NCBI GenBank assembly: GCA_035221665.1
Contig: CM069148.1
Span: 10,540,001-10,604,000, forward strand
Length of the DNA stretch: 64,000 bases
Origin: Okamejei kenojei
Lineage: Eukaryota
Reading direction: 5' to 3'
Made by a program: the position numbers. Positions 36,001 through 39,000 of the stretch are shown in pieces. The first letter of the stretch is position 1; each line of letters opens with the position of its first letter.

Positions 36001-39000
36001 ATCCACTACGGGCACATGTGGGTTCAGCAGCGACAGCGGAGCTTCATTCCCCCTCTCCCGGACGTCTTCCATCACCTTCTGCCATCGATGTTACCGTCGG
36101 ATACTTGAAGGTAACATCAAACTATCCGTTACCCGGGAACTCCTGGAGGCAGTAGATGTCCTTGACCACAAATTTTCAGGCCTCTAGCAAGACCTTCTTC
36201 ACGAACAGGTCTCGTGAGAAGGGGGTCCCCTTGCTGAGGTCCTTGACGCTTATTCTCAGGGTATTCCGAATACCCTATACTCCTGCTCCTGTTGCTGCTG
36301 ACATTGTGGCTGAATAAGGTGTTAGGTTGGTTACCAGCATGGATCCACCTCTAAGGCTGCAGCCGACCGACTCCTTGTCAACGATTTTGCTCCGCAATCC
36401 ACGCCCTTGTCCCCAAGGGACCGCCAGACTTGTTATAATAAGAACAGATAGCCTCTTTTACTCAAATACTCATCCTGGTGAGAACCGCCTTGGTGATCAA
36501 AGTCTGCCAGGTAAGTATATGACCACCTCAACCACCAACACTGGCAGGGTGATCTAGGCATACAGCAGGCTTTGTGTAAAATAAAACCTGCTCCACACAT
36601 CTCCTTTAATCTTTGCCCCTGTCACCTTAAAGCTATATGCAATAATAATTTGATTTTTCCACCCTGAGGTTCTTACCTGATCACCTGGCCTAGCCTATTC
36701 TATCACCTGGAGTGTCACCTGGTCTGTTCTGCCCTCCTCACTAAAACGCAAAATTATGGCATTGTCTAAAGAGAGGCCCCACCCCGATATGTTGCCTATC
36801 AATTCCCTCCACGGATGCTGCCTGGTCCATTGAGTTACTCCAGCACCTTGTGTTTTGCTGAAGATTCCAACATCTGCAGTACCTTGTATCCACTCTCCAG
36901 CCTATTCATTGTTCCTTTTCTCTTTCAACTTTTTTTACAGTGGTTAGTCAGCTTCAGTGTTGATTCATAACTTATACCAGATCTTACCACACTCTTTTTG
37001 AAGTTTTTCCTTCTAACTTCCGCTTGAATTACATATGAATTGTCTATCTATTTCTTCACTCTGCTTTCAGAAGGCAGGAACGGGGTACTGAATGTGGATG
37101 ATCAGCCATCATCACAGTGAATGGCGGTGCTGACTTGAAGGGCCGAATGGCCTACTCTTGCACCTATTGTCTATTGAATCTTGACTGTCATGAGCAATAC
37201 TAAGGAAAATTGTGTGTGTGTGGGTGTGTTAGTGGGTACACCCTCATACCAGTGAGCAAAACTCAGTTAAAATTGGTATAACTTATCGTGTTGCCTGCAT
37301 CTTCGGAATCGAAGCTACCTTGCTCCCACCTATCCACTATTCTCTTCTATATCTTTTATGTTGAAGCCATCAGCCAACTTTAGGAACATGTATGTCTCCT
37401 CTACTGGCTCCCTCCCAAAGTCTGAAATGTATTGGTCATACGGGGCTTTCTATCACTAAACTTATCAAAAGTGATTTACTATCTCACATATTCAACTTAC
37501 CAGACCCAATATGACTCAATCCAGACACAGACATGAACTTTACAACGTGTATTTCTTGTTATTCCTGATAGGAAATCAAGTCAACAGAAGAAATAACAGA
37601 ATTTGCACATTTGAGGCCTAATAAAGTGGAGTTCCTGGCAAATTAATATTTGTTCTTCACTAGTAATTAACCACTAGTTAAACAGTATGTTATTTGTCAA
37701 GGGGAGATACATTTTAAATAAATATTTCAAATTATTTTTGCGTACTCTGTCAGTATAAGATCAAAGCTTGCATTAGAATAGGAAATTGTATCGTGAATGG
37801 ATGAACAGTGAAGCGTCTCTGATTAAAGTGGAATAGTCATAATTCTCAAGGTCAGATAGAAACTAGCAGTTCAGTGACTTCAAAATTAGCATCTGGGGAA
37901 TTTCAAAGTTTAGAGCATTGAGTGTAGTTGTAACCATTTCCTTTCTGTCACTCAGATTCTCCCAGTACTAAAAGGGTGAATGACACTTTTAATACCTCCA
38001 GTGTTCCTCTTTACCCCAAGAGAATTTCCAAAGAAGATTGGAATGCAATAACACAGACGTTTTGTGATTTTTCACGGCCTCCAGAGCAGGTAAGTACATT
38101 TTAACACATAATTCTAAATGTTGGGTTAGCTAATTTGAGAGGAATGTGGAGTTTTATGGGCAAACAGACAATTTATGACACAGGTGGGTTTCAAAAATAC
38201 TGTGAAGGGCATTGGCATCGGTTTTACAATTAAGCCTGATGGAGAAATAGGCAGAGTGCATATGTCAACAAGACTGTAACTGGTTCCTTCACAAAGCTGA
38301 TTTCGCAAAGAGGGAAGTGTTGTATACAGTATATTCAGAACAAAGCTTCTTTTGTGAAGGCAAGAATAAATTTAAAAAGAGTTCAATACTCGCGAATTAT
38401 ACCTATACATTTTTACAGAACAATATGGAACTTACCGTTACATAATTAACTGAAAAAAATGTAACTAGATTATAGCCAGCTAGGAAATCAAGAGTTACCG
38501 AATTCATGCAGGGTAGTGGCATTAAGATAAAAGATCAGCCAAATGGGTTTCCCCTGTTTCTATTTCTTAAAGTCCAGTCACTATTCGTATTTGAGAGTAA
38601 TATTTGAATTAACTTTTTCTTCCAGCAAACCTGGAGCAGATGGGGGTTTTGCAAGTAGGTGTTGATCTAGGAAAGAATCAGCTTCTAATTAACCACAGGA
38701 CATTCAAATATACACCATTTGCTTTCTTGGTCTAACTGGAGGGAGGCACTTTACATTTCACCTCATCTTGGCTGTGGTATAGTACACCTTGTATTGAATA
38801 TTCCATTATAAATTGCCACCAAAAGTACATACGCTTTACCCCAACTATACCCAGCATCAGGAGAAAATTATGTTGGAGTATAAACAATTGCAAAATGCTG
38901 CCGTAAGGTAACGTAGAGCCCAGTTCACTGTGACAAGTGATTGCAGATAATAGTACAGTAAAGATACTACTTTAACTAGTGGGACATTTCTTTGAAAAAT

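What the first reader, a model, noticed from the sequence alone, without database searches (positions are those of the whole stretch)
36469..36525. Autonomous-type Tx1 LINE whose 5' end is a U1 snRNA-derived head
Seen: immediately inside the 14-bp TSD (after 7 extra nt), the element starts with ATACTTACCTGGCAG, identical to U1 nt 1-15. A diverged stem-loop I region follows (TGATCACCAAGGCGGTTCTCACCAGG, retaining the GATCAC core of the U1-70K-binding loop, with the 5' stem arm shortened). Known: snRNA-headed SINEs (crocodilian SINEU, mobilised by Tx1), U6-L1 template-switch chimeras and U2-targeting Keno elements exist. I do not know of a described U1-headed two-ORF LINE family in chondrichthyans. 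Inference, three options: (a) a master copy sits in a U1 gene and is transcribed from the external U1 promoter, which would explain a start at U1 +1; (b) the head is a fixed, remodelled family feature that may recruit U1 snRNP proteins; (c) a one-off template switch. The internal remodelling of the head favours an older family-level capture.
Basis: partly seen in the sequence, partly recalled or inferred. Interest (0 to 1): 0.9.

Follow-up and report, generated by a model that had tools for sequence, protein, structure and literature searches.

The report
Shark LINE with U1 snRNA head
A decayed 5.4-kb LINE retrotransposon in a shark or ray genome begins with the first 15 bases of U1 spliceosomal RNA and a cut-down piece of its first hairpin, a kind of head already described for related LINEs in crocodilians.

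Summary
On the minus strand a two-ORF LINE (36518 down to its poly-A at 31077) lies between perfect 14-bp target-site duplications. After 7 extra bases it starts with an exact U1 nt 1-15, unique in the window. The U1 loop motif GATCACCAAGG follows. Two uninterrupted copies of the host repeat elsewhere in the window show that head and LINE arrived in one insertion. Only about 45 nt are U1-like: Rfam gives 13.4 bits against a threshold of 69.5, and only in a 111-nt search. The copy is dead, with at least 8 stops or frameshifts. Its relatives are elasmobranch and amphibian APE+RT+zf-RVT elements. The novelty claim is too broad. Kojima 2015 (PMC4494074) already reports autonomous Tx1 families with U1 heads (Tx1-2_Crp, Tx1-2B_Crp, Tx1-4_AMi), explained by template switching onto snRNA. 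I found no such report for cartilaginous fishes. The window holds no second copy and no eukaryotic genome DNA could be searched, so family feature versus one-off chimera stays open. The diverged, internally deleted hairpin part favours an inherited head. Verdict: a new member of a known kind, of moderate-to-low interest.

The parts
36526..36539 (-). 5' copy of the target-site duplication, GTTGGTGGTTGAGG
   Evidence: Read. Identical to the 3' copy. Lies inside a host interspersed repeat whose paralogs are uninterrupted at this point.
36519..36525 (-). 7 extra bases (TGGTCAT) between the duplication and U1 +1. Either untemplated or junction filler, or a short 5' extension carried over from the source copy.
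   Evidence: They do not match the host repeat after the duplication (CAGATAC in the 3' flank, CAGACAT in the paralog).
36504..36518 (-). Exact copy of U1 snRNA nt 1-15 (the part that recognises 5' splice sites). First bases of the element.
   Evidence: exact and unique in the window; aligned to U1 model positions 1-15.
36500..36503 (-). ACTT, standing where the 5' arm of U1 stem-loop I should be (net loss of 7 positions)
   Evidence: Rfam alignment shows a 7-position deletion here.
36474..36499 (-). Diverged remnant of the U1 stem-loop I loop and 3' arm (TGATCACCAAGGCGGTTCTCACCAGG)
   Evidence: alignment (GAUCA..AAG and following); motif GATCANNAAGG is unique in the window.
36466..36478 (-). 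CCAGGATGAGTAT, a 5'-splice-site-like stretch complementary to the element's first 12 bases. The predicted hairpin closes off the 5' end.
   Evidence: MFE structure; overall z-score -0.44, not significant; duplex -14.2 kcal/mol, reached by 4 of 2000, 7 of 2000 and 15 of 2000 shuffles of the next 60, 100 and 188 nt. Noticed after the fact.
36341..36465 (-). Rest of the 5' untranslated region. No RNA family match.
   Evidence: no Rfam hit at E<=10.
35554..36340 (-). ORF1 remnant: an RNA-binding domain of the ZCCHC3 type plus CCHC zinc knuckles. Broken by 2 in-frame stops and 1 frameshift between 36274 and 36081.
   Evidence: Pfam (RBD_ZCCHC3_2nd 1.7e-20, zf-CCHC 2.5e-07). Frames. tblastn of P0108 and P0121.
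34958..35232 (-). 42-nt tandem repeats (about 4.6-4.8 copies) in the ORF1-ORF2 spacer
   Evidence: Self-hits.
31381..34734 (-). ORF2 remnant: apurinic-type endonuclease (33922-34734), reverse transcriptase, and the zf-RVT zinc domain (about 31709-32047). It has 3 in-frame stops (codons starting 33924, 33675, 33006) and 2 frameshifts (near 32040 and 31680).
   Evidence: Pfam. tblastn frame map. Translations. Closest solved structure is human LINE-1 ORF2p, E 3e-29.
31077..31380 (-). 3' untranslated region with AATAAA (31101-31106) and the A8 tail (31077-31084)
   Evidence: Read.
31061..31074 (-). 3' copy of the target-site duplication
   Evidence: Continues into the host repeat.

Best explanation
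This is a dead copy of an elasmobranch L1/Tx1-type LINE whose RNA began with a short U1 snRNA-derived head: U1 nt 1-15, a gap where the stem-loop I 5' arm was, then a diverged loop and 3' arm up to about nt 50.

The most likely history is the one proposed for crocodilian Tx1-Mar LINEs and SINEU. At the end of reverse transcription in an ancestral copy, the LINE's reverse transcriptase switched template onto a U1 snRNA and ran to its 5' end, which is why the head starts at U1 +1. That copy became a source element, so the head was inherited and decayed along with the rest of the family. The exact first 15 bases may be a later, second U1 addition onto an older, 5'-shortened head. This copy then inserted by target-primed reverse transcription into a common interspersed repeat, which gave a 14-bp duplication and 7 junction bases.

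The head is most likely a passenger. It has no Sm site, no stem-loops II-IV and no intact stem-loop I, and U1 genes have no internal promoter to donate.

Shown: the U1 origin, the single insertion event, the LINE architecture and the decay. Inferred: the template switch, the inheritance and the lack of function.
For: - U1 origin: exact U1 nt 1-15 at the element's first base, the loop motif 5 nt later, and an Rfam U1 alignment over model positions 1 to about 58.
- One insertion event: perfect duplications, and host-repeat paralogs at 8907-8702 and 12958-12763 that run straight across the insertion point.
- LINE architecture: ORF1 with an RNA-binding domain plus CCHC, and ORF2 with APE + RT + zf-RVT.
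- Precedent: Kojima 2015 reports U1 heads on Tx1-2_Crp, Tx1-2B_Crp and Tx1-4_AMi and a U2 head on Tx1-11_Crp. It also reports recurrent 5' addition of U1 or U2 pieces that are 3'-truncated at varying positions, attributes them to template switch, and states that no internal promoter is known for snRNA genes.
- Inheritance rather than fresh capture: P0074, an intact relative, is 88-96% identical in protein over 532 residues. This copy has therefore drifted only a few percent. The 26-nt hairpin remnant, however, carries an indel and several mismatches to the U1 consensus, while nt 1-15 have none.
Against: - No second copy of the family is in the window (0 further hits by blastn and by tblastn with 6 relatives), so inheritance of the head was not observed.
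A variant U1 or a jumpy single template switch could give the same head in one step.
- The 7 extra bases fit a fresh chimera, an ordinary 5' junction and a 5' extension from a source copy equally well.
- The 5'-end hairpin with a splice-site-like partner is better than 99% of shuffles. That hints at something beyond a passive passenger.
- A start at U1 +1 is also what transcription from a U1 gene promoter would give.
Confidence: 0.55

Rival explanations
1. One-off chimera. The U1 piece was picked up by template switching during this very insertion, and the family's other copies lack it.
For: No other copy could be examined. U1 nt 1-15 are perfect. Extra bases at the junction are common at freshly made 5' junctions. 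Kojima 2015 documents many independent 5' additions of U1 onto single SINEU-2 copies (26 copies).
Against: The hairpin part is deleted and diverged well beyond the few percent drift estimated for this copy. This rests on the Rfam consensus and on recalled vertebrate U1, not on this species' U1.
Confidence: 0.22
2. U1-gene co-transcription. The family targets, or a source copy happens to sit in, a U1 gene or pseudogene near nt 50. It is transcribed from the external U1 promoter, so transcripts start at U1 +1 and carry U1 1-50 into off-target insertions such as this one.
For: The start is exactly at U1 +1. Tx1-clade relatives do target small RNA genes: Keno targets U2, and the Kojima 2015 figure 3 legend lists U5 and 5S targets.
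Against: This copy sits in an interspersed repeat, not in U1. The head's resemblance to the target flank is at chance level: 915 of 5000 shuffles and 540 of 3000 random window 60-mers score as well. A head copied from a working U1 gene should not lack the stem-loop I arm. No U1-targeting Tx1 appears in the target list I read. By recall, snRNA-type promoters are coupled to 3'-box processing and are poor at making long polyadenylated RNAs.
Confidence: 0.12
3. Functional head. The retained U1 5' end is kept by selection because it helps the LINE RNA. It might act alone or as a hairpin with the splice-site-like partner, for example through 5' end protection, nuclear handling or mimicry of U1.
For: Nt 1-15 are perfectly conserved next to a decayed remainder. 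The terminal 12-bp pairing is reached by only 4 of 2000 to 15 of 2000 shuffles. U1 heads arose independently in crocodilian Tx1 LINEs.
Against: One copy gives no measure of selection. The whole-head fold is not better than shuffles (z -0.44, 57 of 200 fold as well). The pairing was noticed after the fact. The stem-loop I arm, the Sm site and the later stem-loops are missing, so a U1-like particle cannot form (inference from the known U1 snRNP architecture).
Confidence: 0.08
4. Chance. The 15-mer is not U1-derived but the reverse complement of a consensus 5' splice site or a random match.
For: On the + strand the same bases read as a perfect splice donor, CAG|GTAAGTAT.
Against: The 15 of 15 match includes bases outside the donor consensus. 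It sits at the exact LINE terminus inside the duplications, and the U1 loop motif follows in the right order. The downstream complementary stretch is not an exact inverse copy of the head.
Confidence: 0.03

Closest known systems
Crocodilian Tx1-Mar LINE families with U1-originated heads (Tx1-2_Crp, Tx1-2B_Crp, Tx1-4_AMi; Kojima 2015, PMC4494074)
   Same: An autonomous-type LINE of the L1/Tx1 group carrying a U1-derived sequence at its 5' end. The U1 part is 3'-truncated. The insertion lies in another repeat.
   Different: The host is an elasmobranch, not a crocodilian. The stem-loop I 5' arm is deleted here. The crocodilian SINEU-2 and Tx1 head printed in the paper (positions 20-45) keeps that spacing; this was compared by eye only. 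Here one decayed copy is known, not a family consensus. Membership of the Tx1-Mar subgroup was not tested.
SINEU (crocodilian SINEs with U1 or U2 heads)
   Same: A U1-derived head starting at or near U1 +1. Recurrent 5' addition of U1 pieces and internal rearrangements of the head are documented.
   Different: SINEU elements are short, under 500 bp and non-coding. This element is 5.4 kb with two ORFs. SINEU is reported only from crocodilians.
snRNA/L1 template-switch chimeras of mammals (U6-L1 and the like; Buzdin 2002 and Garcia-Perez 2007, as cited in Kojima 2015)
   Same: snRNA sequence fused to the 5' side of LINE sequence within one pair of duplications. The snRNA part reaches its own 5' end.
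   Different: By recall, those chimeras join a whole snRNA to a 5'-truncated LINE or pseudogene and are one-off, dead-on-arrival events. Here the U1 part is a roughly 45-nt remodelled fragment and the LINE part is full length, with 5' UTR and ORF1.
Keno and other small-RNA-gene-targeting Tx1 elements
   Same: The same broad LINE group, and an association with a spliceosomal snRNA.
   Different: Keno inserts INTO U2 genes. This copy carries a U1 piece as its own head and sits in an unrelated interspersed repeat.

Membership tests
U1 spliceosomal RNA gene or pseudogene (Rfam RF00003) | Reaches the family's gathering score over the full model | tested here: not met
   13.4 bits against 69.5, only model positions 1 to about 58, and only in a 111-nt search. 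No hit.
U1 spliceosomal RNA gene or pseudogene (Rfam RF00003) | 5' end that recognises the 5' splice site (nt 1-11) | tested here: met
   Exact nt 1-15 at 36504-36518 (-).
U1 spliceosomal RNA gene or pseudogene (Rfam RF00003) | Intact stem-loop I, stem-loops II-IV and an Sm site | tested here: not met
   7 positions of the stem-loop I 5' arm are deleted. Nothing beyond about nt 50 is detected when 197 nt are offered untruncated.
L1/Tx1 group of non-LTR retrotransposons | ORF2 with an apurinic-type endonuclease, a reverse transcriptase and a C-terminal zinc domain | tested here: met
   Exo_endo_phos 3.1e-16, RVT_1 1.4e-22, zf-RVT 2.9e-05 (the last at 25.1 bits, below its 27.5 cutoff). Human LINE-1 ORF2p is the best solved relative, E 3e-29.
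Tx1 clade | ORF1 of the RNA-binding-domain plus CCHC-knuckle type, not Transposase_22 | tested here: met
   RBD_ZCCHC3_2nd and zf-CCHC. Ivancevic 2016 passages call RRM/zf-CCHC ORF1s of non-mammalian animals consistent with Tx1.
Tx1 clade | RT groups with reference Tx1 elements rather than with L1 in a phylogeny | tested here: inconclusive
   No labelled Tx1 or L1 reference set was available and no tree was built. phmmer scores of the 405-aa RT piece: 117 bits to a protein named after the Xenopus Tx1 ORF2 (P0189, 'YTX2 protein'), 207 bits to a zebrafish 'pol-like protein' (P0016), and 105 bits to human L1 ORF2p. These do not discriminate. A whale shark genome paper passage says cartilaginous fishes have Tx1 but no full L1.
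Tx1 clade | Preference for a specific target sequence | tested here: inconclusive
   One insertion only. It lies at a conserved point of an interspersed repeat. Two uninterrupted paralogs are in the window.
snRNA-headed Tx1 LINE family (Kojima 2015 type) | U1- or U2-derived sequence at the 5' end of the LINE | tested here: met
   for this copy.
snRNA-headed Tx1 LINE family (Kojima 2015 type) | The head is shared by independent copies (present in the family consensus) | not testable with these tools
   No second copy in the window.
SINEU | Short non-coding retroposon (under about 500 bp) | tested here: not met
   5,442 bp with two ORF remnants.

The most novel reading that the evidence does not exclude
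Tx1-type LINEs of lineages that split over 400 million years ago (elasmobranchs and crocodilians) have independently fixed a U1 5'-end head. The head is kept because it does something for the LINE RNA. One possibility is a terminal hairpin in which the U1 splice-site-recognition sequence pairs with a built-in splice-donor-like stretch. Another is a route by which U1 snRNP, bound at that donor-like stretch, is the template the reverse transcriptase jumps to.
Probability: 0.1. Interest if true: 0.6.

Novelty: new member of a known kind. Interest (0 to 1): 0.3.

Why it matters
If the head proves to be a family feature in sharks and rays, U1 capture by Tx1-type LINEs is recurrent across distant vertebrates rather than a crocodilian oddity. 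That would point to a built-in tendency of these reverse transcriptases to jump onto spliceosomal snRNAs, or to a benefit of a U1 5' end.

It would also give a second system for Kojima's open question: how are elements with snRNA heads, which carry no internal promoter, transcribed?

There is a practical side effect. Every such head inserted antisense in a gene plants a perfect splice donor on the gene's sense strand.

As it stands, this is one dead copy of a kind already in print. It is ordinary for a repeat annotator and mildly interesting for a transposon specialist.

Tried and rejected
- **Rfam.** Whole window at gathering score: 0 matches. 801 nt at E<=10: 0. 197 nt at E<=10: 0. Only the 111-nt search gave the weak U1 hit, plus a mir-4003 match at E 1.1 that I take as chance.
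- **Second copy in the window.** blastn of the 5,451-nt element gave only itself and its internal repeat. tblastn with 6 relatives hit only this element.
- **Does the head resemble the target flank (a U1-like target site)?** The best local alignment is a shared 7-mer. 915 of 5000 shuffles and 540 of 3000 random window 60-mers reach it. Rejected.
- **Whole-head fold.** z-score -0.44, not significant.
- **Bacterial-type promoter and terminator scan of 36300-36800.** Not applicable to a vertebrate element; ignored.
- **tRNA scan.** 0 genes.
- The listing of cluster members for P0016 and P0004 was not available, so accessions that might tie P0016 to a named Tx1 element were not seen. Its figures are not held, so the printed alignment of Tx1 heads with U1 (figure 1B) and the supplementary alignments, which bear directly on how similar the crocodilian heads are, were not seen.
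- **Literature searches.**
  - 'U1 snRNA' + Tx1 + non-LTR: 2 papers.
  - Tx1 + snRNA + shark: 1 paper.
  - ZCCHC3 + Tx1: 0 papers.
  - 'SINEU': 411 papers, swamped by SINEUP; 1 of the 25 listed was relevant.
  - Tx1/cartilaginous/elasmobranch terms: 1,263 papers with at least 3 of 6 terms; of the 15 listed only 1 held Tx1.
  - snRNA + Tx1 + head + retrotransposon from 2015: 5 papers.
  - None describes a U1-headed LINE in cartilaginous fishes. Repbase Reports, Dfam and subscription journals were not searchable.
- No comparison with a full vertebrate U1 sequence was run, because none came from a tool. Statements about vertebrate U1 beyond the Rfam consensus are recalled.
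Full report
**What is there**

The feature reads on the minus strand. From 36518 downwards the sequence is ATACTTACCTGGCAG, then ACTT, then TGATCACCAAGGCGGTTCTCACCAGG, then ATGAGTAT. 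The 15-mer is exact and is the only match in the 64-kb window even with two mismatches allowed (0.10 expected, 10 of 100 shuffles with a match).

Seven bases (TGGTCAT, 36519-36525) separate it from GTTGGTGGTTGAGG at 36526-36539. The same 14 bases recur at 31061-31074, right after AATAAA (31101-31106), an A8 tail (31077-31084) and two bases GA. The element is 5,442 bp from U1 +1 to the end of the tail.

**How much of it is U1**

The Rfam U1 model does not reach its threshold. There is no match on the whole window at gathering score, none at E<=10 on 801 nt and none on 197 nt offered without truncation.

A hit appears only when 111 nt are searched: 13.4 bits, E 0.11, against a gathering score of 69.5. 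It covers the model from position 1 to about 58, has identity over positions 1-13 and 15, a 7-position deletion in the 5' arm of stem-loop I, and the loop letters GAUCA..AAG. The loop motif written as GATCANNAAGG occurs once in the window, both strands (0.73 expected), 5 nt after the 15-mer. The chance of that placement is of the order of 1 in 10,000.

About 45 nt are therefore U1-derived: nt 1-15 untouched, then a shortened and diverged stem-loop I remnant. Nothing of stem-loops II-IV or the Sm site is detectable. It is a fragment, not a U1 gene or retropseudogene.

**One insertion event**

Both flanks belong to an interspersed repeat with other copies in the window. In local alignments the 5' flank matches 8907-8785 and the 3' flank matches 8808-8702 of one paralog. 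The overlap is the duplicated stretch. A second paralog at 12958-12763 behaves the same way. The paralogs run straight through, with no U1-like or LINE sequence. The 7 bases, the U1 head and the LINE thus entered together, and the 7 bases are not target sequence.

**The LINE**

- ORF1 (remnant 36340-35554) has a ZCCHC3-type RNA-binding domain (1.7e-20) and CCHC knuckles.
- ORF2 (34734-31381) has an apurinic-type endonuclease (3.1e-16), a reverse transcriptase (1.4e-22) and the zf-RVT zinc domain (2.9e-05, just under its cutoff).
- Human LINE-1 ORF2p is the nearest solved structure (E 3e-29; R2 proteins follow at 5.5e-08 and weaker).
- The copy is dead. ORF2 has three in-frame stops and two frameshifts. 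The ORF1 N-terminal domain has two stops and one frameshift within the stretch that aligns to relatives. That makes at least 8 lesions.
- A 42-nt tandem repeat fills the ORF1-ORF2 spacer.

**Relatives**

- With longer proteins allowed, the best full-length relatives are amphibian APE+RT+zf-RVT proteins at 44-49% identity (73 hits at E<=1e-10).
- At similar lengths, one unnamed protein (P0074) is 92% identical and is open across both of this copy's frameshifts.
- Named shark and ray proteins follow at 62-87% identity: Heterodontus, Cetorhinus, Hemiscyllium, Mobula, Rhinoraja and Pristis (55 hits at E<=1e-20).

The window is therefore elasmobranch, and the LINE lineage is widespread there.

**The Tx1 label**

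The label is plausible. The ORF1 type is the one that Ivancevic 2016 links to Tx1 in non-mammalian animals (passages only). A whale shark genome paper states that cartilaginous fishes have Tx1 but no full L1 (one passage).

I could not show it, however. No reference set was available and no tree was built. The RT piece scores 117 bits against a protein named after Xenopus Tx1 ORF2, 207 bits against a zebrafish pol-like protein and 105 bits against human L1 ORF2p.

**What is known**

For Kojima 2015 (PMC4494074) I read the abstract, Introduction, Results and Discussion. [quoted passage not shown]

It documents recurrent 5' addition of U1 or U2 pieces, 3'-truncated at positions that vary by up to 22 nt, sometimes with short homology at the junction. 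It also reports internal replacements and partial duplications inside heads. It attributes these to template switching and notes that snRNA genes have no internal promoter, so how such elements are transcribed is open.

My searches found no such report for cartilaginous fishes. Repbase, Dfam and subscription journals were out of reach.

**Mechanism**

I take the Kojima model as the best fit. Reverse transcription ran off the LINE RNA onto a U1 snRNA and to its 5' end in an ancestral copy. The chimera became a source element and the head was inherited.

The argument for inheritance is indirect. This copy differs from the intact relative P0074 at about 8% of 532 residues, which corresponds to a few percent of bases. 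About one change would then be expected in the 26-nt remnant. The remnant nevertheless carries an indel and several mismatches to the consensus, while nt 1-15 carry none.

That contrast also fits a two-step history: an old, 5'-shortened head topped up later by a fresh U1 5' end, as seen repeatedly in SINEU. It does not exclude a single jumpy switch onto a variant U1. I give the one-off chimera 0.22.

- The copy is not in U1.
- The head's likeness to the target flank is at chance level.
- A head taken from a working U1 gene should keep stem-loop I.

Recruitment of U1 proteins (option b) is unlikely, because the stem that presents the U1-70K loop is gone.

**An unexplained detail**

The first 12 bases are predicted to pair with CCAGGATGAGTAT at 36478-36466, a splice-donor-like stretch directly after the U1 remnant. 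The duplex energy of -14.2 kcal/mol is reached by 4 of 2000, 7 of 2000 and 15 of 2000 shuffles of the following 60, 100 and 188 nt. The fold of the whole head is not unusual, though (z -0.44). I noticed the pairing after the fact and one copy cannot test it. It is the basis of the bolder reading, at probability 0.1.

**Verdict**

This is a new member of a known kind: a U1-headed L1/Tx1-type LINE in a host group where none is in the literature I could search. It is known here from a single dead copy. Whether the head is a family feature is the decisive open point, and it needs the genome.

Noticed in passing
window 36504-36518, + strand: Read on the + strand, the head is CTGCCAG|GTAAGTAT, a perfect consensus splice donor. 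Any U1-headed element inserted antisense to a gene plants such a donor on the gene's sense strand. A long open frame on the + strand lies 8 kb upstream (27038-28726).
   Followed up: no
window 27038-28726, + strand: A 563-codon open frame with no Pfam match. It is rich in S, T, N, D and E and looks like a large disordered coding exon of a host gene.
   Followed up: partly
window 36526-36640 and 30960-31074; paralogs 8702-8907 and 12763-12958: The LINE sits in an interspersed repeat whose 3' part (…TTCGGCACAGACATTGTGGGC…GTGCTGTAC.GTTCTATGTTC) recurs in the window. The insertion point is in a conserved stretch of it. Whether this LINE family prefers that repeat, as Tx1-Mar prefers a Mariner, is unknown.
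   Followed up: partly
window 34958-35232: A 42-nt tandem repeat, about 4.6-4.8 copies (86% and 79% matches), lies between ORF1 and ORF2 of the LINE. On the element's strand it encodes a proline/glycine-rich repeat.
   Followed up: no
window 40929-41501, + strand: An open frame with a Tc3-type transposase helix-turn-helix domain (HTH_Tnp_Tc3_2, 1.4e-18), a Tc1/mariner remnant.
   Followed up: no
window 29948-30571, - strand: A 208-codon open frame just downstream of the LINE's 3' flank, with no Pfam match. It begins in a T-rich, low-complexity stretch and is probably not a gene.
   Followed up: no
protein hits (for example P0119, P0078, P0091): Several annotated elasmobranch 'genes', including one named transcription factor HES-7-like in Pristis pectinata, match this LINE's ORF2 at 62-70% identity over part of their length. 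Pieces of this LINE lineage appear to be folded into gene models.
   Followed up: no
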